In this document: one piece after another, positions 22,088 through 57,573 of the stretch | Numbering within the stretch: the stretch's first letter is position 1 | Layout: each line of letters opens with the position of its first letter | Source: Escherichia coli | Lineage (GTDB): Bacteria; Pseudomonadota; Gammaproteobacteria; Enterobacterales; Enterobacteriaceae | Length of the DNA: 64,000 nucleotides | Assembly (NCBI RefSeq): GCF_024700885.2 | Contig: NZ_CP117014.1 | Strand: one strand, 5' to 3' | Made by a program: the position numbers and the translations under genes | Notes under the pieces: generated by a model | What the model was told of the DNA's origin: nothing | Seen by the model: only the letters and a program-made list of their open reading frames with translations | The model's database searches: none

Positions 22088-22190
22088 TGTCTGGAGATTG
22101 TGATTTCAATTCATATCCCAGCATGGGACTAAAGTGCTTTACATTGTCCCATATTGGAACTACTATACTTTCAGTGAGAAGGAATCTGTG

Positions 22191-22493
22191 ATGAAAATAA
22201 TTTCGGTAAAAACACTAAGGGATTTTTGGGCGAAGAATCCCGATGCAGAACAGCCTTTAAAGGCATGGGTTGATGAAGCAACAAAGGCTGACTGGAAAAA
22301 TCCGGCTGAGATCAAAGAACAGTACCGGACAGCCAGCATCCTTAAAAACAGGCGCGTGGTGTTCAATATTAAGGGAAATGATTACAGGTTAATTGTCGCA
22401 ATTGCTTATCAGCGAGGATGGATGTTCGTTAAGTTTATTGGAACACACAAGGAATACGATGCCATTGACGCGGATACAATAGAACTGGAGTAA
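22191..22493 (+). CDS. higB: HigB-family type II toxin (RelE/ParE fold)
   Basis: 100 aa with conserved ...FNIKGNDYRLI...FIGTHKEYD pattern; toxin-first gene order. Confidence 0.75.
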   Translation: MKIISVKTLRDFWAKNPDAEQPLKAWVDEATKADWKNPAEIKEQYRTASILKNRRVVFNIKGNDYRLIVAIAYQRGWMFVKFIGTHKEYDAIDADTIELE

Positions 22494-22496
22494 ATC

Positions 22497-22856
22497 ATGA
22501 ACATTAAACCTATCCGTACAGAACAAGATTATGAGGCCGCACTGCGTGCGGTCGAACCGATGTTCGATAACGAACCGGAAATGAACACCCCGGAAGGTGA
22601 TTTCTTTGAGGTCATGTGTCTTCTCATTGAGGAGTACGAGAAAAAACATTACCCAATTGAGCCACCATCACCTATTGAAGCCATTAAATTCCGCATGGAA
22701 CAGCAAGGGCTGACCGTGAAGGATCTGGAACCGGCAATTGGTAAGTCAAACCGTGTTTACGAAGTGCTTAATGGGACACGAAATTTGACGTTACCTATGA
22801 TTCGTCGTTTACATGCCCAGTTTGGTATTCCACTGGAAAGTCTGGTTGGTGTTTAA
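22497..22856 (+). CDS. higA: HigA-family antitoxin (XRE-type HTH)
   Basis: 119 aa, starts 4 nt after higB stop; C-terminal HTH-like segment (GLTVKDLEPAIGKSNRVYEVLNG). Confidence 0.75.
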   Translation: MNIKPIRTEQDYEAALRAVEPMFDNEPEMNTPEGDFFEVMCLLIEEYEKKHYPIEPPSPIEAIKFRMEQQGLTVKDLEPAIGKSNRVYEVLNGTRNLTLPMIRRLHAQFGIPLESLVGV

Positions 22857-22916
22857 GTTTTGCGGTCTGGATGACCGCTTTTACATAAAATCAATGTTTA
22901 AATATTTGGTAATTAT

Positions 22917-23648
22917 ATGAGCGCTGATTCATCAATAGAAAAGGAAAACCCCTCTACCAAAAATCTGTTAGAAGACGCTGTAAAAGATAAGTTGTTTAAT
23001 AAGGTTTTTGCCTATATTTTTATTTCATTTTTAATTTCTAACTGGCAAGAAATATTGATTTTGTTTAAATCAAAATATGATATATACACAACACTATCTA
23101 TAGTATGGATTGGTGACAAATATCAAGTCCCTTATTTGGGAACCTTCATTGTACCTCCGTTTTTAGCTCACTTTGTTATGCCGTTTATATATGGCACTGT
23201 TGCGTCCATAGTAATGCCTTATATTACTATGCGTATATCAAAACTAACTGGTAGAAATTATGCGCAAATAAGACATATTGACCGTGAATTTGACTCAAAA
23301 GAGCAAGCAAGATTAGATGAGTTACAGAAAGAAATAGAACAAAAAAAAGATGAGCGTTTAAGTCTAGAAAAGAAAATAGAAGATCAACGTAAATCATTGG
23401 CTAAAATTGAAGGTGAAAAGAAAGAAGTTGAGGACGCTAGAATATCCCTGTTTTATGGGATAAAGGCAATAGTTGATATATATGAAACCAAAGGCGAAAG
23501 CATTTCCACCCAAGAGGATTTTGCTGATTTACTAAAGGCAGTCGAACAAACTGATTTTTATAAAGATACAGGTTTATACGGTATTAATAAATTGGTAGAT
23601 GATGTAAAAAGAATATACGAACATCAATCTATCTTAAATGATAAGTAA
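22917..23648 (+). CDS. Membrane protein with 2-3 N-terminal transmembrane helices and a long charged coiled coil (243 aa)
   Basis: Strongly AT-rich gene; hydrophobic segments (FAYIFISFLISNWQEILILF; FIVPPFLAHFVMPFIYGTVASIVMPYITM) then E/K-rich heptads. Confidence 0.5.
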   Translation: MSADSSIEKENPSTKNLLEDAVKDKLFNKVFAYIFISFLISNWQEILILFKSKYDIYTTLSIVWIGDKYQVPYLGTFIVPPFLAHFVMPFIYGTVASIVMPYITMRISKLTGRNYAQIRHIDREFDSKEQARLDELQKEIEQKKDERLSLEKKIEDQRKSLAKIEGEKKEVEDARISLFYGIKAIVDIYETKGESISTQEDFADLLKAVEQTDFYKDTGLYGINKLVDDVKRIYEHQSILNDK

Positions 23649-26430: not shown

Positions 26431-27054
26431 ATGAAGGATGGTGTAGTGAAGTTAAGGGTTTTAGGGGCCGCGCTCGCGGCTATGTTGGGATGCGTATCTG
26501 CTAATACTGCCAATGCAACTGCGTTACCTGCACAATTCAGGGCAGGGCAGCAGGTTATGAATAATGCTGGTGGGGATCATTCACAAGCGGCCATTATGGA
26601 CTTTTGCAAGAGGGAGGGCATTCCATTACGGCCTGTTGGAACTCAGTTTATTGGTAAAACTGACTTTTGCGTTTTTGCATATACAGCATATCTGACGGAC
26701 AAAGCTATAACAAAAACAGGTTATTCAACCAAAGATACTCTTTCCAGATTAAGTCAGGGATGGCAGCAATTCGAAGTGTATCGCCAGCAAGGATTAGGTG
26801 AGTTATTGCAACCACTTTTTATGCTTGCGTTGGTGCCCGAGGGGCAGCAATTTTTGGTTAAAAAGGGAATGCTTCGCCAAAGTGATATTGCCGGGTTCGA
26901 TAGCATGATGGCTTATGAGCGCAAACTAACCGAGCAGCGAAATAAAAAACCATCTGCTTCATGTGTGCAAAGTAAAACAGCAGAATACAGTGCAGTAGCC
27001 GGGCCTTTAGCCAAACAAATGGCAGAGCAATGGTGTAAAAAATACGGGCAATAA
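26431..27054 (+). CDS. Exported protein with signal peptide (207 aa)
   Basis: N-terminal LGAALAAMLGCVSANTANA signal-like segment. Confidence 0.5.
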   Translation: MKDGVVKLRVLGAALAAMLGCVSANTANATALPAQFRAGQQVMNNAGGDHSQAAIMDFCKREGIPLRPVGTQFIGKTDFCVFAYTAYLTDKAITKTGYSTKDTLSRLSQGWQQFEVYRQQGLGELLQPLFMLALVPEGQQFLVKKGMLRQSDIAGFDSMMAYERKLTEQRNKKPSASCVQSKTAEYSAVAGPLAKQMAEQWCKKYGQ

Positions 27055-27074
27055 GTTACGCAGCGGAGGCAGAA

Positions 27075-27467
27075 TTGAAAAGATTGACAATTGCTTTACT
27101 GGCGTCTTTCCCTTTGATCGCGAGCGCCGGAAATTTACAAGTTAAGTGCGGTCGGTTTGATATAAAAATCTATCCAGATGCCATATTTCTGAATGGGAAT
27201 AAGGTTGATAACGTACACCGAAAAACTGAATCTGACGTAATGAGCTATGTGTTCCAGGAGTATGCGGAGATGGGGGGAACTTACACGCTGTACTCGCTGG
27301 ATGTTCCTTCTCGCGGTGATATGACATTATCCCATCAATGGCAGAACGCCGATGGCGAAGCTCTGCGCGAAGTTAAAACAGAAAAATGTGGCACTTTCCA
27401 TTCTTTTAAAGGGAAAGTGCCAAATGTTAAATCTGTGCTTGAAAAACAGCGCGCAGGTGATTTTTAA
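27075..27467 (+). CDS. Exported protein with signal peptide (130 aa)
   Basis: MKRLTIALLASFPLIASA signal peptide. Confidence 0.5.
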   Translation: MKRLTIALLASFPLIASAGNLQVKCGRFDIKIYPDAIFLNGNKVDNVHRKTESDVMSYVFQEYAEMGGTYTLYSLDVPSRGDMTLSHQWQNADGEALREVKTEKCGTFHSFKGKVPNVKSVLEKQRAGDF

Positions 27468-27489
27468 ACTGTGTTAGCACTTTGAACAT

Positions 27490-27535
27490 GGCGACAACAC
27501 ATCTTGGTGGCTGCGTTGTCGCTGTATGTTTTTAT
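27490..27535 (+). terminator. Rho-independent terminator
   Basis: GCGACAAC...GTTGTCGC stem followed by TGTATGTTTTTAT. Confidence 0.5.
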
Positions 27536-27555
27536 AATATAAAGCATTAAAGTTT

Positions 27556-28185
27556 TCATTTTTGTCGGATCTTTTCCAGCATATTTAATTCATTATCACT
27601 TTCTGCTGCTGAGACGGTTGGCCTCACATTTCCGAAATATTTCCTGTGAGACTCATGACTTATGTATTCACCGACAGTTTCATTCTTGAATATACGAATT
27701 TGACATATGCGAGATCCAACAATAAGTTCTACAGGGCTATTCCCATGATTAAATAACTCTAAAGATATACAGCCTCTGTACCCTGGTTGTATCATGGTAT
27801 TTAATGAAAGACCAAGCCTTGTATAGCTGCTTCTGGACAATACATCAGCGTAGCAATCTGGTGGCAAACAAACATATTCTAATGTTGTTGCCAGTACCAC
27901 TTGATTCGGGTAAACAATGAACCTATCCCCAAGATCTCTCCTTGTTTCCTGGAAAAATGTTCTGATTGGTTGATGAGTATCATTGTTTTTTGAGGGAATT
28001 AACTCTATTGACGGCTTCCTTGTCATAATAGACACTAAAAAATCGTAACCAAGTCTAAGGTCTATGGTGAAGTTTCCAATTTGGTTTTTATTTAGAAGAG
28101 GTTCAATGAACAACGACTCAGGTTCTTCTGATTCATAATATTGCAGCAATTCAGCTTTGCTTAGGAGATTCATTGTGCACTCCAT
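27556..28185 (-). CDS. dCTP deaminase (Dcd/dUTPase-fold) homolog
   Basis: 209 aa collinear with E. coli Dcd: IDLRLG, LATTLEYVCLP, RSSYTRLGL, GYRGCISLELFNHG; putative catalytic Ser/Arg/Glu conserved. Confidence 0.7.
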   Translation of the reverse strand: MECTMNLLSKAELLQYYESEEPESLFIEPLLNKNQIGNFTIDLRLGYDFLVSIMTRKPSIELIPSKNNDTHQPIRTFFQETRRDLGDRFIVYPNQVVLATTLEYVCLPPDCYADVLSRSSYTRLGLSLNTMIQPGYRGCISLELFNHGNSPVELIVGSRICQIRIFKNETVGEYISHESHRKYFGNVRPTVSAAESDNELNMLEKIRQK

Positions 28186-29243
28186 TTTTCAAGAATCATT
28201 ACGTTTCGAATCGATTTTTCAACCAAATCATTTATAGTTTTTTCTATGGCTTCTTTTGACAACCCAGACCATATACCCGTAGGTTTTTCCCATTCAGAGC
28301 ATAAGTACTGCCAGCTGCTGTTAATAAAAGCATGCATTTCATTGTGGTCGCGAATAACAAAAGGACGCACATTATCAAAAGCTGATTTCACATCAAGCAA
28401 AGGTGTCGGCAATGTCAAACAAGGAGAAATAATCTGCCCACCCTTATGTAAGGCTGATATCACAGCATTGAACATGCCAACAACTGGATTTTCCACTTTG
28501 TTCAAAAAGTCGCTTACAATTTTAACTCTATCTTCTGTGGATGGGTGAGTATAGCTTGCAGGATGAGAGCCAGCTAATTTGTATAAGAAATCTACCCCAC
28601 TTTTTCCAATAAATTGGGCACTAAATAGATCTGCAAAATATTCTCTGCAATGATTTATCCAAATAACATCAGGTAGATTACTCCATTCTGGTCCTGGAAG
28701 TGTGCCTTTGTCCTTGGAACGATAGTTAAGACAGGCAAGCTCAGAAATACCTTTGCTAATATCAACGAAATGTCCCAATTCGTGATATAAAGGTATAGAG
28801 CATAATGGTCGTCTTCTGTACATTTCAGGTAATGAAATCTGAATTAATTCGACCTCGAATTTGACATTTAAAACTTCATCAAATAAAGAATACAAATTCT
28901 TGTTTACAGACTTAAAATAAAACCCATGCATATCTGGAGATAGGGCTGTGGTTATAAGTGTTTTTTCACTTATCCATTTTTTACAGGCATCATTTAAGCA
29001 ATAAACAATCTCGTAGGGAATTTTCTTTGTAGTACTGCCAGTGAAAAAATTAACTGCATCGGTGATAAAAAAAGTACAATCCGCAATTATTTTATCAGCA
29101 ACATTCACATGGTTTTCATAGAGCTTATCTACCGCTTCTTGTAGAACAGCAAGATATTCATGCATGTCTTTAGAAAAATAGGGAGATTCTGATATCTCCC
29201 TTAGCTTATTTCGAACTAATGTAAGTTGTGTAAATGCAAGCAT
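28170..29243 (-). CDS. HExxH zinc metallopeptidase-like protein (ImmA/IrrE-like motif)
   Basis: 357 aa; HELGH at residues 154-158 with downstream EYFADLFSAQFI; 16-nt overlap with Dcd-like gene. Confidence 0.5.
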   Translation of the reverse strand: MLAFTQLTLVRNKLREISESPYFSKDMHEYLAVLQEAVDKLYENHVNVADKIIADCTFFITDAVNFFTGSTTKKIPYEIVYCLNDACKKWISEKTLITTALSPDMHGFYFKSVNKNLYSLFDEVLNVKFEVELIQISLPEMYRRRPLCSIPLYHELGHFVDISKGISELACLNYRSKDKGTLPGPEWSNLPDVIWINHCREYFADLFSAQFIGKSGVDFLYKLAGSHPASYTHPSTEDRVKIVSDFLNKVENPVVGMFNAVISALHKGGQIISPCLTLPTPLLDVKSAFDNVRPFVIRDHNEMHAFINSSWQYLCSEWEKPTGIWSGLSKEAIEKTINDLVEKSIRNVMILEKWSAQ

Positions 29244-29548
29244 TAAATGTACTCTAATACATTCCGGGCCATTACGGGTTCTAACATATCTTCGCTAGTT
29301 ACTTTGGTTAGCACCTGGGCGAGCGCCTTAGTGTGGCGTATCTCTACCGCGAGCGAGATGGACTCTCTGTGAGAAGGAATCTGTAATTGATCACCTTTAT
29401 CTACACTTAAGTTTGAGGCTTCTCTGATCACCTCATAAACCCGTAACTTTAACTGCTGTGACACTTCTTGTTGAGATGCTATAAGCTGAAGTACAGTCTT
29501 GATTAACTTCAAAGAATCAGAAGCTTGCTGAGGAACCGCATAGAGCAT
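29243..29548 (-). CDS. Small hypothetical protein (101 aa), first gene of the three-gene operon
   Basis: Stop overlaps start of the metallopeptidase gene; predicted all-alpha. Confidence 0.4.
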   Translation of the reverse strand: MLYAVPQQASDSLKLIKTVLQLIASQQEVSQQLKLRVYEVIREASNLSVDKGDQLQIPSHRESISLAVEIRHTKALAQVLTKVTSEDMLEPVMARNVLEYI

Positions 29549-29684
29549 AACCCCTCCTTTTCCCTTATCTATAACCGCTTTCTTTTTTCTGTGGATGTTA
29601 AAAGTAGAAGCGGTTTTTACCTTTTATAATATATATAGTGTCTAAAACTAATTTTGGCACTATATATGGCATGATATCTATGTT

Positions 29685-29730
29685 TTAAAGACACAAAAGC
29701 TCTGTTAAAACAGAGCTTTTGTGTCTTTAA
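29685..29730. promoter_or_regulatory. Perfect 20-bp inverted repeat with 6-nt spacer upstream of the three-gene operon
   Basis: TTAAAGACACAAAAGCTCTG-ttaaaa-CAGAGCTTTTGTGTCTTTAA; second IR ATATATAGTG-N17-CACTATATAT at 29631-29667. Confidence 0.5.
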
Positions 29731-29874
29731 CTTGATCATTTTCTCGCTGAAGTGTATGTCAGGCTTAGCTCATAATCAAGTTGCTTCCAAGCTAAAAATG
29801 AGCTATTTCACTGAAACACCAAGAGCGGGATGTTTCATTTATTTGCGTTGGGCCTGACGGTGTGCAGGTGAGTT

Positions 29875-30162
29875 TTAGCTCATCACACTATAACGACGGG
29901 GAACGGAATTCTCCATCAGGTCACGAATTACTCCCGCCTCATGTAGTTCCTCTGTTTCCCAGTATCTGTTTGTCACCAGATCGAGGCTGGCTATGACCTT
30001 GTGCCGGTCATTAGGCATAGCCAATTTTTCTGCTATAACCATCAGTGAAAACTCTTCATCCAGTAGGATTTGATACCAGACTTTTGACAGCTCCAACTCT
30101 CTAATGAGGGTGAAGCGCCGCTCAAGTGTGGCGGCAGAATAAGTGAAATCTATTTTTTTCAT
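29875..30162 (-). CDS. Hypothetical protein (95 aa)
   Basis: ORF downstream of antirepressor-like gene. Confidence 0.4.
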   Translation of the reverse strand: MKKIDFTYSAATLERRFTLIRELELSKVWYQILLDEEFSLMVIAEKLAMPNDRHKVIASLDLVTNRYWETEELHEAGVIRDLMENSVPRRYSVMS

Positions 30163-31363: not shown

Positions 31364-31548
31364 ATTGGCAGCCTCCTTTGACTAAGTTAAGGAGCTACCG
31401 CGTGAGGTTCCAATCTCAATGGCGGTAGCACTGACTGGGTTGGAACTACCGGCGTCAAAGGGAACCGGCCTGCCTTTCGGCAGCCCAGCCAGCACTACCA
31501 TTGATCTCTGAGCTAAACGCTACGTATGGCTGTGCGATGGCATGACAC

Positions 31549-31569
31549 AAAAAAGACGCTTTCGGCGTC
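31549..31569 (-). terminator. Rho-independent terminator (minus strand)
   Basis: GACGC-tttcg-GCGTC with A6 on plus = U6 on minus. Confidence 0.5.
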
Positions 31570-31674
31570 TGTGTCGCCTTTGACATTATCCGGGGTTCCA
31601 ATCCCGGCACCCGTTTTTCTAAGGTGCCGTAGAAATATACCCCACGATAATGCTAGGGCGCAACAGTCAGTATT

Positions 31675-47618: not shown

Positions 47619-48113
47619 TTATAACTTTTCGTACTGAAGCGGTGAACGCTTAATTTCAAAGTGGCCTTCCGATGTGCTACCAAAGCCACCAGCACCACGC
47701 TCCGTTTCGTTGAGTTCCTCAACCTCGACTAGTGAGACTTGTTCAACACGCTCAAAAATTCCTTGCATGACAGCCATTCCAGGCTTGAGACAAACGCCTT
47801 CCCCGCCGGGATCAGTAATCAGTTTTGCCATGATTTCGCCGCGATAATCGGAGTCGATAATTCCTACGCAGTTAGCCAGGCGAGTATGTTTTTTGCAGCC
47901 CAATCCTGATCGCGGATAGAGTTTCAGACACCAGCCGGGCGGGATCTCCATAGCCAGTCCGGTATACACCCACCAGCTTGAGGAAATTGCACCATTGCTA
48001 TCGACGCATGGTTTTATTTCAACAGCCTCAAAATCCATCGCCGCCGATCCGGAGGTGGCATAAGCTGGAAGTTTTGCTGCCGGATGTAGGCGTTTCACTT
48101 TTACGTAAATCAT
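47619..48113 (-). CDS. dut: dUTP diphosphatase
   Basis: Motifs AYATSGSA, PRSGLG, GIIDSDYRGE, GAGGFGSTS. Confidence 0.8.
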   Translation of the reverse strand: MIYVKVKRLHPAAKLPAYATSGSAAMDFEAVEIKPCVDSNGAISSSWWVYTGLAMEIPPGWCLKLYPRSGLGCKKHTRLANCVGIIDSDYRGEIMAKLITDPGGEGVCLKPGMAVMQGIFERVEQVSLVEVEELNETERGAGGFGSTSEGHFEIKRSPLQYEKL

Positions 48114-56278: not shown

Positions 56279-56354
56279 TGGTGGCCCCTACCGGACTTGA
56301 ACCGGTGACCGTGCGATTATGAGTCGCCCGCTCTAACCACTGAGCTAAAGGGCC
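56279..56354 (-). tRNA. tRNA with CAU anticodon (Ile2/Met-type)
   Basis: Reverse complement gives 76-nt cloverleaf ending CCA, anticodon loop CTCATAA; very similar to E. coli ileX from memory. Confidence 0.8.
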
Positions 56355-56783
56355 AGATTACTGTTAATTACGCTTACGCTTTTTGCCAGAACCGCGTAAG
56401 GCTTTTGCCGCTTGCTCTACCCCGTATGCAACCACCAGCAGAAACAATAATGTCCACTCCGGGTTTTTATCGGCAAACGCCCAAAAATCCATCACTTGCA
56501 GCCACCTTTTAAGACAAAACGCCATTGCTGTTAGGTTGCGGTGCCGGGCGCCTCCCGGTGACGTTAACCAGTTAACAATTAACGCCGGATCACTTATGGA
56601 TTCTCGTTACGCCAGTAAAAAGACCACCTTTACTGTTTTAACTGTTCCGCGTGCGCTTAGCCGCATTCACCGCAATGGTAAGAGCATTTGGCTGACTGGG
56701 CGGCGATGACGCCTGTACGCATTTGGTGATCCGGTTCTGCTTCCGGCATTCGCTTAATTAGCCAAATACCCTTAATGTTGCAC

Positions 56784-56870
56784 TGGCGGAGAGTAATGGA
56801 ATCGAACCATCATCGCTTGCGCAATGGGACGGTTTTCAAGACCGCTTGAGCACCATGCTCCCTACTCTCC
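56784..56870 (-). tRNA. tRNA-Ser (UGA), type II with long variable arm
   Basis: 87 nt, acceptor GGAGAGT/ACTCTCC, anticodon stem GCGGT/ACCGT, loop CTTGAAA, T-loop TTCGATT, 3' GCCA. Confidence 0.7.
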
Positions 56871-57324
56871 CGTTATTGTGGCGACCGGTGCTGATCTCCG
56901 GCTTGCGGTTATTTCAGACTCTCACGGGCGTTTAATTGCCCCGCCGAACAGCTCTTTTCCGCAATAGCTGCAATGTCTTTCGCGCATCAGCCTGCGCATT
57001 CACCACAATGTTGAGAACACTGGTTGTCACGCTGCAACGCAACATTTATTCGTAGATTGGGATATGACCCCGTTACGCCAGTGTTCTCAACGTTGTAGTG
57101 CCGGTTACGGTTCCGGCCAGACCTCTTCCTCAACGGGGTGTTCTCCATACGGACTACCGTTTATTGGTCGTTCCTGCGGTTTATGTTGTGAAGCCAGATG
57201 CTTATCTTCTGGTTGCTTCAAAGAGCTGCACTTCATCACAACGGTAAGAGCATTTATGGCTCGCATCGCGGGAAAAAGCCCACGGTAGAGAGTCGAACTC
57301 TACAAATGCTCTTACCTGTTGTGT

Positions 57325-57400
57325 TGGTGCCGGTTAACGGGATCGAACCGCTGACCATTCGCTTACAAAGCGACTGCTCTACCAACTGAGCTAAACCGGC
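57325..57400 (-). tRNA. tRNA-Thr (UGU)
   Basis: 76 nt, acceptor GCCGGTT/AACCGGC, D-arm GCTCAGTTGGTAGAGC, loop TTTGTAA, T-loop TTCGATC, CCA. Confidence 0.8.
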
Positions 57401-57404
57401 AATT

Positions 57405-57491
57405 TGGTGGGGAGTGATGGAGTCGAACCACCCGAGTCGCAATGACAGTAGATTTACAGTCTACCCCGCTACCCCTACGGACTAACTCCCC
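57405..57491 (-). tRNA. tRNA-Tyr (GUA), type II
   Basis: 87 nt, acceptor GGGGAGT/ACTCCCC, anticodon stem GTAGA/TCTAC, loop CTGTAAA, CCA. Confidence 0.75.
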
Positions 57492-57496
57492 TAAAT

Positions 57497-57573
57497 TGGC
57501 GATGGTGGGTGGATTCGAACCACCTACCGAAAGCTTAGAAGGCTGCTGTTCTATCCTACTGAGCTACACCATC
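57497..57573 (-). tRNA. tRNA-Arg (UCU)-like
   Basis: 77 nt, acceptor GATGGTG/CACCATC, loop CTTCTAA as in E. coli argU, T-arm GGTGG-TTCGAAT-CCACC, CCA; one mismatch in anticodon stem. Confidence 0.6.

What the first reader, a model, noticed from the sequence alone, without database searches (positions are those of the whole stretch)
27556..29548. Three-gene AT-rich operon coupling an HExxH metallopeptidase to a Dcd-fold dCTP deaminase: candidate undescribed defence / abortive-infection module
Three translationally coupled minus-strand genes (29548->27556; stop/start overlap at 29243 and a 16-nt overlap at 28170-28185) sit in a markedly AT-rich block. Gene 2 (357 aa) has HELGH at residues 154-158 plus a downstream EYFADLF segment, the arrangement seen in ImmA/IrrE-type signal-responsive peptidases. 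Gene 3 (209 aa) is collinear with E. coli Dcd (IDLRLG, RSSYTRLGL, GCISLELFNHG) with the putative catalytic Ser/Arg/Glu retained. Nucleotide-depletion defences are known, but a trimeric Dcd/dUTPase-fold deaminase under an ImmA-like peptidase is not an architecture I recognise. Mundane alternative: the Dcd homolog supplies dUTP to the element's own dUTPase (47619-48113) for thymidylate synthesis, and the neighbours are unrelated.
Basis: partly seen in the sequence, partly recalled or inferred. Interest (0 to 1): 0.85.

Follow-up and report, generated by a model that had tools for sequence, protein, structure and literature searches.

The report
Mobile peptidase–dCTP deaminase three-gene cassette
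A 2.4-kb foreign insert in an E. coli phage-plasmid carries three genes (a small helical protein, a zinc-peptidase-like protein and a dCTP-deaminase-type enzyme) that stay together across distant bacteria, often next to known anti-phage genes, so it is probably an undescribed nucleotide-depleting defence module, though nobody has tested it.

Summary
Three overlapping minus-strand genes (g1 101 aa, g2 357 aa, g3 205-209 aa) fill a discrete 2,416-bp insert (27470-29885). It has the lowest GC of the window and is absent from a sister plasmid.

- **Host element:** a D6/P1-like phage-plasmid. The insert lies just downstream of the immI (c4-icd-ant) region.
- **g3:** a Dcd-family protein scoring above NCBI's curated cut-off. 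It keeps catalytic Ser/Arg/Glu, but its clade replaces the sugar-binding Asp with Gln.
- **g2:** a rare divergent zincin with invariant HELGH, ExFxD and HPxxxxR motifs. It is M48-like, not ImmA/IrrE.
- **g1:** a small helical protein with no recognisable relatives.

The trio is conserved. In 49 of 50 g2-bearing genomes (Proteobacteria and Bacteroidota), a g3 homologue follows immediately, and a ~100-aa gene precedes g2 in 47. One metagenomic protein fuses g2 to g3.

Neighbours are often defence genes: Qat, type I R-M with PrrC, type III R-M, SoFic, SIR2 and toxin-antitoxins. In 22 of 50 loci a Bub ubiquitination-like operon is adjacent.

PADLOC and ten literature searches found no description. 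Best reading: an untested, mobile dCTP-depleting defence module. Some Bacteroidota loci sit in non-defence contexts.

The parts
27470..29885 (.). Discrete 2,416-bp horizontally acquired insert that contains only the three genes and their flanking control regions
   Evidence: The cassette-less sister plasmid NZ_CP021537 matches the window up to 27469 and again from 29886, with only 29 bp between those points in the sister. GC is 0.372 against 0.472, the lowest of 308 sliding windows. Phage D6 carries simB and orf80 here instead.
29243..29548 (-). g1: 101-aa all-helical protein of unknown fold family. Proposed inhibitor, adaptor or peptidase substrate (inferred)
28170..29243 (-). g2: 357-aa divergent zincin (gluzincin, M48-like motifs), the predicted metallopeptidase
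   Evidence: Invariant H154-E155-x-x-H158, E201/F203/D205, H233-P234...R239 and the C-terminal NDLxEKSIRN motif in 21 homologues. Pfam gives only a weak M48 match (0.034). M48 is weak in 8 of 21 members, ATLF in 4 of 21 and M78 in none. The AF2 model has pLDDT 89.8, with no significant PDB fold match. The family has only 507 50%-identity cluster representatives among 1.84 billion.
27556..28173 (-). g3: 205-aa Dcd/dUTPase-fold dCTP-deaminase-type protein (alternative start 28185 gives 209 aa), the predicted effector
   Evidence: TIGR02274 at 113.3 bits (cut-off 92.8) and Pfam DCD 1.6e-30. The best PDB relatives are dCTP deaminases. R110, S111, S112, R115, E138, K178 and Y179 (E. coli numbering) are invariant in 50 clade members. 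D128 is Gln in 49 of 50, with a 3-residue deletion before it.
29659..29688 (-). Sigma-70-like promoter candidate for the cassette (TTAAAA-18-TATAGT)
   Evidence: Consensus scan with 9 of 12 matches, which is not above the shuffle expectation for the region. Its position about 110 nt upstream of g1 is the only support, so this is weak.
29687..29728 (-). Perfect 19-bp hairpin followed by UUUAAAA. It looks like a terminator that insulates the cassette from the upstream immI/ant/pmgF-like transcript, and it lies inside the insert
   Evidence: Sequence. RNAfold gives -31.1 kcal/mol.
27490..27522 (.). Inverted repeat just past the g3 stop, a terminator-like element shared with the convergent plus-strand gene
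   Evidence: Terminator-like site on the plus strand at 27505-27524. The minus-strand fold gives -21.1 kcal/mol.

Best explanation
The region is a self-contained, horizontally mobile three-gene module carried as cargo by a D6/P1-like phage-plasmid.

**Components.** g3 is a Dcd-fold nucleotide deaminase that most likely converts dCTP to dUTP. g2 is a zinc metallopeptidase of a rare, divergent M48-like zincin family. g1 is a small helical partner.

**Proposed working (inferred).** In the resting cell the deaminase is held inactive in a g1-g2-g3 complex. A signal from infection or DNA damage activates the peptidase. The peptidase then cleaves g1, or the conserved C-terminal tail of g3, and releases the deaminase. 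The deaminase drains dCTP and floods the pool with dUTP, which stalls or corrupts replication of an incoming phage. That would be nucleotide-depletion immunity, possibly abortive.

**Role on this element.** On the phage-plasmid it would act as a lysogen-expressed exclusion function.

**Shown:** the module's anatomy, its acquisition as an insert, its conservation as a trio across phyla, retention of catalytic residues, and frequent defence or mobile-element neighbours.

**Inferred:** the enzyme activity, the direction of control, proteolysis as the switch, and the antiviral role.
For: **Unit and acquisition**
- The insert is discrete, AT-rich and absent from a sister plasmid.
- It is present in only 7 of 5,426 complete E. 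coli genomes, always on ~90-109-kb plasmids.

**Conservation**
- g2 is followed by g3 in 49 of 50 genomes from Alpha-, Beta-, Gamma- and Deltaproteobacteria and Bacteroidota. Gaps range from small overlaps to about 70 nt.
- A g1-sized ORF lies upstream in 47 of 50.
- Two g3-centred look-ups give the same trio.
- The metagenomic protein P0324 fuses g2 to g3.

**Active sites**
- Catalytic residues are invariant in both enzymes.
- g3 scores above the curated Dcd cut-off.

**Context of relatives**
- Proteus: an integrase island next to QatABCD.
- Emticicia: inside a type I R-M operon.
- Bradyrhizobium: after hsdR-hsdS-prrC-hsdM.
- Methylolobus: next to type III R-M.
- Agrobacterium: between a Bub operon and SIR2, with ImmA and VapC nearby.
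- Methylophilus: Bub, M78, AAA_15/21, NmeDI and RHS.
- A metagenome contig: SoFic, a kinase and AHH.
- A toxin-antitoxin and R-M island.
- A Dickeya integrase island with an HTH-M78 pair.

**Partner swap**
- In one distant Prevotellaceae locus the g1-g2 pair precedes a 1,271-aa NACHT/STAND NTPase instead of Dcd, the kind of partner swap seen in immune systems.
Against: - There is no experiment of any kind.
- No PADLOC family matches, so there is no homology link to a validated system.
- The clade replaces Asp128, conserved in canonical Dcd, with Gln and deletes the preceding loop. Substrate or activity may therefore differ.
- Defence neighbourhood is not universal. 18 of 20 large neighbours tested across 10 loci (mostly Bacteroidota) had no PADLOC hit at E<=1e-6. 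These included T9SS cargo, SprA and a lanthipeptide synthetase.
- Two Hymenobacteraceae loci lie directly after nrdA. Aeromonas has uvrD beside the module. Two loci lie near dnaA-dnaN-gyrB.
- Nothing shows what g2 cleaves. g2 has no significant structural neighbour in the PDB.
- My neighbour sampling was partial and biased towards large ORFs.
Confidence: 0.5

Rival explanations
1. The trio is a stress or DNA-damage nucleotide-pool module rather than antiviral immunity. It would be a regulated second Dcd that reshapes dCTP/dUTP/dTTP pools during replication stress, working beside, or as an output of, Bub ubiquitination-like pathways whose own role is unknown.
For: - 22 of 50 loci lie within 6 kb of a Bub operon in several different arrangements.
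- In Methylotenera and Methylophilus the trio follows a CapP-like M78 gene in the same orientation.
- The Bub papers report regulation by DNA-damage-responsive CapH/CapP, CapW or CapK/CapS, and no phage defence shown so far (10.1101/2024.11.21.623953; PMC13373217).
- nrdA, uvrD and dnaA/gyrB are neighbours in some loci.
Against: - Distribution is patchy and rare (507 cluster representatives).
- Carriage is on plasmids, integrase islands and a phage-plasmid.
- The module is embedded in R-M operons.
- The window's copy works without any Bub genes nearby.
- These points fit a conflict system better than physiology.
Confidence: 0.2
2. The trio is an addiction (toxin-antitoxin-like) module that stabilises the mobile elements carrying it. 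Dcd would be the toxin and g1/g2 the neutralising partners, with no dedicated antiviral role.
For: - The operon is compact and translationally coupled, with a small first gene.
- It is located on plasmids and islands.
- It neighbours other toxin-antitoxin pairs.
- A HigB/HigA pair sits elsewhere on the same element.
Against: - A 357-aa conserved metallopeptidase is unusual for an antitoxin.
- Many copies are chromosomal.
- Toxin-antitoxin function and defence are not mutually exclusive.
Confidence: 0.12
3. This is phage-serving nucleotide metabolism. Dcd would make dUTP for the element's own dUTPase and thymidylate synthesis, and the neighbouring genes would be unrelated.
For: - A real dUTPase gene lies at 47619-48113.
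- PHROGs files distant g3 relatives under nucleotide metabolism (phrog_1663).
Against: - dut is in 101 E. coli plasmids while the cassette is in 7.
- The cassette is a separate insert about 18 kb from dut.
- g3 is always paired with g1/g2 and never with dut or thyA in the loci examined.
- No GenBank phage record encodes g2. Only 3 IMG/VR contigs carry g2 relatives and 1 carries clade-type g3.
Confidence: 0.04
4. g3 is not a dCTP deaminase. The Asp-to-Gln change and loop deletion would retarget it to another nucleotide, such as a modified dCTP, CTP or a signalling nucleotide, or make it a nucleotide-binding sensor. g2 would then be the effector protease.
For: - D128 is Gln in 49 of 50 members, and the R126 loop is deleted.
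- There are clade-specific invariant motifs: FQETRR and RKYFGxVRPxxS.
- g3 is more conserved (40-63% identity) than g2 (25-39%) across phyla.
Against: - The full catalytic set and the triphosphate-binding residues are invariant.
- The aromatic sugar-gate position is kept as Tyr, Phe or Trp.
- The score is above the curated equivalog cut-off.
Confidence: 0.12

Closest known systems
Housekeeping dCTP deaminase Dcd (E. coli dcd; TIGR02274, Pfam PF22769; PDB 1xs1)
   Same: Same fold family and length class. Collinear alignment with catalytic Ser111/Arg115/Glu138 and the triphosphate-binding Arg110/Ser112/Lys178/Tyr179 kept.
   Different: - It is an accessory paralogue on mobile DNA.
- Asp128 is Gln, with a 3-residue deletion before it.
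- It has extra invariant motifs (FQETRR; RKYFGxVRP...D-x-[DE]-L tail).
- It is always operonic with g1 and g2.
dCTP-deaminase defence genes (Tal et al. 2022, bioRxiv 10.1101/2021.04.26.441389) and AvcD
   Same: The predicted outcome is the same: removal of deoxycytidine nucleotides to starve phage replication.
   Different: - Those enzymes are zinc-dependent cytidine/dCMP-deaminase-fold proteins with an N-terminal kinase-like domain, encoded as single genes (from my own knowledge of those papers).
- g3 matches no PADLOC model at E<=0.1 and matches only the DCD and dUTPase Pfam families.
- Here there are three genes, including a peptidase.
Metallopeptidase-controlled immune modules: CapH/CapP, ImmR/ImmA and the RosmerTA antitoxin RmrA (Peptidase_M78)
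   Same: An HExxH zinc peptidase encoded with an immune or toxic effector. It is a plausible signal-responsive switch.
   Different: - g2 has no M78 match in any of 21 members.
- Its motif triad is M48-like.
- Its partner g1 shows no HTH.
- The three genes are co-oriented and translationally coupled, not divergent.
Peptidase family M48 (HtpX, Ste24, BepA)
   Same: HExxH, then a Glu in an ExxxD helix, then HPxxxxR. Weak Pfam matches cover exactly that C-terminal part.
   Different: - Matches are below significance.
- g2 has extra N-terminal three-helix and C-terminal helical domains.
- No significant fold match to any solved structure.
Bub (6E/DUF6527) bacterial ubiquitination-like operons
   Same: Physically adjacent to the trio in 22 of 50 related loci, plus Agrobacterium pAt1, Methylophilus and one IMG/VR contig. 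In Rhizobiales the order is BubAB-BubCD-BubE-g1-g2-g3 on one strand with gaps of about 70 nt.
   Different: - No Bub genes occur in this window, nor at the Proteus, Dickeya or Aeromonas loci.
- The Bub papers do not mention a deaminase or this peptidase.

Membership tests
Dcd dCTP deaminase (TIGR02274 / PF22769) | Sequence score above the curated family cut-off | tested here: met
   113.3 bits against a cut-off of 92.8. Pfam DCD 1.6e-30.
Dcd dCTP deaminase (TIGR02274 / PF22769) | Catalytic Ser111, Arg115 and Glu138 (E. coli numbering, from my knowledge of the Dcd structures) | tested here: met
   Invariant in 50 of 50 clade members. Equivalent to S115, R119 and E139 in the 205-aa protein.
Dcd dCTP deaminase (TIGR02274 / PF22769) | Conserved Asp128 of the (I/V)DPGW motif that contacts the deoxyribose | tested here: not met
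   Gln in 49 of 50 and His in 1, with a 3-residue deletion just before it.
Dcd dCTP deaminase (TIGR02274 / PF22769) | Homotrimer; dCTP-to-dUTP activity; dTTP feedback inhibition | not testable with these tools
Enzyme assays are needed.
Known dCTP-deaminase defence (Tal 2022 / AvcD type) | Zinc-dependent cytidine-deaminase-fold domain recognised by PADLOC models | tested here: not met
   0 PADLOC families at E<=0.1. Pfam shows only DCD and dUTPase.
ImmA/IrrE (Peptidase_M78) switch with HTH partner | Match to Pfam PF06114 | tested here: not met
   None of 21 family members matches.
ImmA/IrrE (Peptidase_M78) switch with HTH partner | HExxH plus a downstream Glu ligand | tested here: met
   H154, E155, H158 and E201 are invariant. 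This feature is shared by all gluzincins, so it does not discriminate.
ImmA/IrrE (Peptidase_M78) switch with HTH partner | Adjacent HTH repressor as substrate | tested here: inconclusive
Peptidase M48 | HExxH ... ExxxD ... HPxxxxR motif series | tested here: met
   All three motifs are invariant in alignment A1.
Peptidase M48 | Significant profile or fold match | tested here: inconclusive
Bub (bacterial ubiquitination-like) locus | BubA (Ubl), E1/E2 and BubE (DUF6527) genes in the locus | tested here: not met
   No tblastn hit better than E=0.03 in the 64-kb window. The feature is met in 22 of 50 related loci.
Validated anti-phage defence system (any) | Protection against phage when expressed | not testable with these tools
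   Only neighbourhood evidence is available.

The most novel reading that the evidence does not exclude
The trio is a new kind of immune module in which a zincin peptidase unleashes a housekeeping-type (dUTPase-fold) dCTP deaminase. In many bacteria it would also be the missing output arm of Bub ubiquitination-like pathways, which so far have neither a known effector nor a demonstrated phenotype.
Probability: 0.2. Interest if true: 0.85.

Novelty: new variant of a known kind. Interest (0 to 1): 0.64.

Why it matters
**A third route to an existing strategy.** Nucleotide-pool depletion is an established antiviral strategy, for example through dGTPases and cytidine-deaminase-fold dCTP deaminases. 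A Dcd/dUTPase-fold enzyme recruited for it, under a dedicated metallopeptidase, would be an independent third route. It would also show how a housekeeping enzyme is turned into a weapon.

**A tractable test object.** The cassette is small (2.4 kb), self-contained and already in E. coli, so it is easy to test.

**A lead on Bub.** The recurrent adjacency to Bub operons offers a concrete partner for a pathway whose biological role its discoverers call open. It suggests testing Bub together with this trio.

**If the trio turns out to be a stress-pool regulator instead,** it would still define a new protein family (g2, about 500 cluster representatives) and a new regulated Dcd clade.

Tried and rejected
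- **PDB sequence search with the g2 profile.** It gave only spurious TRIM25 hits.
- **Literature.** None found a description. Two of these searches were badly designed and wasted. The DefensePredictor paper mentions an unvalidated 'dUTPase' domain in a predicted system. I could not tell whether it is this family.
- **Neighbour annotation.** Greedy longest-ORF calling produced spurious antisense ORFs in high-GC loci, so I switched to GC3-filtered ORFs. Sampling covered only about 40 neighbour proteins and favoured large ORFs. I report no enrichment statistic.
- **ImmA/IrrE assignment.** Rejected.
- **Dcd feeding the element's dUTPase.** Rejected.
- **Rfam.** It found nothing inside the cassette.
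Full report
**1. Observation**

- g1 runs 29548..29243 (101 aa) and g2 runs 29243..28170 (357 aa).
- g3 ends at 27556.
- g1 is preceded by AAGGAGG, and its stop shares one base with the g2 start.

It gives the classic ATGA overlap with GGAG 8 nt upstream. RefSeq uses this start on an identical plasmid, and homologues align from this Met.

The block is strongly AT-rich. GC is 0.372 against 0.472 for the window, the lowest of 308 sliding 2.4-kb windows.

**2. Host element and insert boundaries**

The window is a D6-like, P1-related phage-plasmid.
- Flanks are about 95% identical to Escherichia phage D6.
- The C4 antisense RNA and isrK of the immI region lie at 31418-31627.
- The cassette lies between the mat/sim-like genes and the pmgF-like/ant/icd genes.

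A sister plasmid (E. coli AR_0119, NZ_CP021537) matches the window up to 27469 and again from 29886. Only 29 bp separate those points in the sister. The cassette is therefore a discrete 2,416-bp insert holding exactly three genes and their flanks.
- The flanks include a perfect 19-bp hairpin with a U-run at 29687-29728. This would insulate the cassette from immI read-through.
- D6 itself carries simB and orf80 at this site, so the site is variable.

The identical or near-identical cassette occurs in only 7 of 5,426 complete E. coli genomes, always on ~90-109-kb plasmids. It also occurs on a few Salmonella plasmids.

**3. The proteins**

*g3* belongs to the Dcd family.
- It scores 113.3 bits on TIGR02274 (curated cut-off 92.8) and 1.6e-30 on Pfam DCD. 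Its best solved relatives are dCTP deaminases.
- Across 50 module-linked homologues, Arg110, Ser111, Ser112, Arg115, Glu138, Lys178 and Tyr179 (E. coli numbering) are invariant.
- Asp128 of the IDPGW motif is Gln in 49 of 50, and three residues before it are deleted. The clade also has its own invariant motifs: FQETRR and RKYFGxVRPxxS...D-x-[DE]-L.
- It is therefore a distinct Dcd clade. The catalytic machinery is intact, but the sugar contact is altered.

*g2* has no significant Pfam, NCBIfam or PADLOC match.
- An alignment of 21 diverse homologues shows invariant H154-E-x-x-H158, E201/F203/D205, H233-P234...R239 and a C-terminal NDLxEKSIRN motif.
- That series is the M48-type gluzincin pattern. 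Weak Pfam hits are to M48 (8 of 21 members) and anthrax lethal factor (4 of 21), and never to ImmA/IrrE M78.
- The family is rare: 507 50%-identity cluster representatives among 1.84 billion.

*g1* is a five-helix protein (pLDDT 85.4) with a disordered but conserved N-terminus MLAAxP. It has no informative sequence or fold match.

**4. Conservation of the trio**

A scan of one genome per species with the g2 profile returned 50 loci in Alpha-, Beta-, Gamma- and Deltaproteobacteria and Bacteroidota.
- In 49 of them a g3 homologue follows g2 on the same strand. Gaps range from small overlaps to about 70 nt.
- g3 is the more conserved gene (40-63% identity, against 25-39% for g2).
- A ~100-aa ORF (59-188 aa as called) abuts the g2 start in 47 of 50.
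- These small proteins form a proteobacterial cluster that includes g1, and a Bacteroidota cluster. The two align end to end only weakly (hhalign E=0.0019, probability 14%).

Starting from g3 instead gave the same trio in both look-ups.

One metagenomic protein of 631 aa fuses g2 to the Dcd domain. As a single case it could be an assembly artefact.

The single exception among the 50 is a distant Prevotellaceae locus. It keeps g1-like and g2-like genes but follows them with a 1,271-aa NACHT/STAND NTPase.

The module is almost absent from viruses.
- No GenBank phage record encodes g2.
- 3 of 2.9 million IMG/VR contigs carry g2 relatives.
- 1 contig, the D6-like element, carries clade-type g3.

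**5. Neighbourhoods**

Defence or mobile-element contexts:

| Locus | Neighbours |
|---|---|
| Proteus mirabilis | Integrase/AlpA island directly after QatABCD |
| Dickeya | Integrase island with an HTH-M78 pair |
| Emticicia plasmid | Between hsdR and hsdS-hsdM |
| Bradyrhizobium sp. | After hsdR-hsdS-prrC-hsdM |
| Methylolobus | Type III R-M |
| Agrobacterium pAt1 | Bub operon, SIR2, ImmA/IrrE, VapC |
| Methylophilus | Bub, M78, AAA_15/21, NmeDI, RHS toxins |
| Metagenome contig | SoFic, a kinase, AHH |
| Metagenome island | Three toxin-antitoxin pairs, HicB, methylase-HNH, transposase |
| Mesorhizobium | TraG |

Non-defence contexts also occur.
- Of 20 large neighbours tested across 10 loci (mostly Bacteroidota), 18 had no PADLOC hit at E<=1e-6. 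They include SprA, T9SS cargo and a lanthipeptide synthetase.
- Two Hymenobacteraceae loci lie directly after nrdA.
- Aeromonas has uvrD next door.

My sampling was partial, so I give no enrichment statistic.

**6. The link to Bub operons**

Local tblastn showed that 22 of the 50 loci lie within 6 kb of a multiubiquitin/ThiF-E1/DUF6527 (BubE) operon. So do Agrobacterium pAt1, Methylophilus and one IMG/VR contig. This operon is the Bub 'bacterial ubiquitination-like' system.

The arrangement differs between lineages.
- In Rhizobiales it is the same strand, with about 70 nt between bubE and g1.
- In Methylotenera and Methylophilus it is divergent, with a CapP-like M78 gene directly upstream of g1.
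- In Bacteroidota it is downstream, on either strand.

E1 identities between these groups are only 25-48%. This is therefore not one inherited arrangement.

The Bub papers report no phage protection and no effector. They do not mention a deaminase or this peptidase (10.1101/2024.11.21.623953; 10.1101/2024.11.21.623966; PMC13373217). No paper in the library combines the terms.

The window itself has no Bub genes, so the trio can stand alone.

**7. Interpretation**

Several lines point to a mobile conflict module whose output is deoxycytidine-nucleotide deamination:
- a discrete foreign insert;
- a trio conserved across phyla;
- invariant catalytic residues in both enzymes;
- a fusion protein;
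- a partner swap;
- frequent defence or mobile-element neighbours.

The proteolytic switch and the antiviral role are inference. I put the full statement at about 0.5.

| Reading | Probability |
|---|---|
| A real three-gene unit | >0.95 |
| g3 is an active dCTP deaminase | ~0.7 |
| Antiviral function | ~0.5 |
| Peptidase-as-switch | ~0.35 |

The last is largely refuted. The element's dut is a backbone gene in 101 E. coli plasmids against 7 with the cassette, and it lies about 18 kb away.

**8. Known or new**

The nearest known systems work alike but are not relatives.
- The published dCTP-deaminase defence genes are cytidine-deaminase-fold single genes. g3 matches none of the PADLOC models.
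- Peptidase-controlled modules such as CapH/CapP and RmrA use M78, which g2 is not.

I found no description in PADLOC 2.0 or in ten full-text searches. The DefensePredictor paper lists an unvalidated 'dUTPase' domain among predicted defence domains, and I could not resolve whether it is this family.

I rate it a new variant of a known kind: nucleotide-depletion immunity with a new fold and architecture. It is untested, and the Bub link is the most interesting open lead.

Noticed in passing
Related loci L003, L007, L010, L016, L017, L020-L025, L027, L028, L033, L034, L038, L040-L043, L045, L051, L062, L067, L070: The Dcd trio lies within 6 kb of a Bub (multiubiquitin / ThiF-E1 / DUF6527-BubE) operon in 22 of 50 genomes. 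Arrangements differ between lineages, and E1 identities between groups are only 25-48%. The Bub literature I read does not mention this.
   Followed up: partly
L052:5417-10804 (Prevotellaceae MAG): g1-like and g2-like genes are followed by a 1,271-aa NACHT/STAND NTPase instead of a Dcd. This may be a partner swap. It is a single distant case: g2 is 25% identical over 206 residues.
   Followed up: partly
Protein P0324 (metagenomic, 631 aa): A natural fusion of the g2 zincin (residues ~1-397) with the clade-type Dcd domain (~430-631). It is a single example, so read-through or an assembly error is not excluded.
   Followed up: partly
L037:3124-5517 and L049:3108-5489: In two Hymenobacteraceae genomes the gene directly upstream of the trio is ribonucleotide reductase alpha (NrdA). 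This is a nucleotide-metabolism neighbour rather than a defence one.
   Followed up: no
window 31418-31627 (-): The C4 antisense RNA (77 bits) and isrK sRNA of the P1-type immI immunity region lie about 1.5 kb upstream of the insert on the same strand.
   Followed up: no
window 26431-27467 (+): Two ORFs (207 and 130 aa) with signal-peptide or lipobox-like N-termini occupy the place of D6 simB. The sister plasmid has a different first gene. They may be superinfection-exclusion cargo in the same variable region.
   Followed up: no
window 22134-23648 (+): A second AT-rich accessory patch (GC 0.37-0.42) holds a HigB-like toxin, an HTH antitoxin and a 243-aa protein that looks like a membrane/coiled-coil protein from its sequence.
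   Followed up: no
It is a backbone gene, present in 101 E. coli plasmids against 7 that carry the cassette.
   Followed up: yes
window 56279-57573 (-): A cluster of five tRNA genes (Met, Ser, Thr, Tyr, Arg) sits on the phage-plasmid.
   Followed up: no
window 29243-29548 (g1), residues 38-90: Two independent weak hits to CARF-family models fall on the same 50 residues: PADLOC Csx1 at E=0.015 and NCBIfam Crn1 at E=0.032. The model is all-helical, so this is probably chance.
   Followed up: partly
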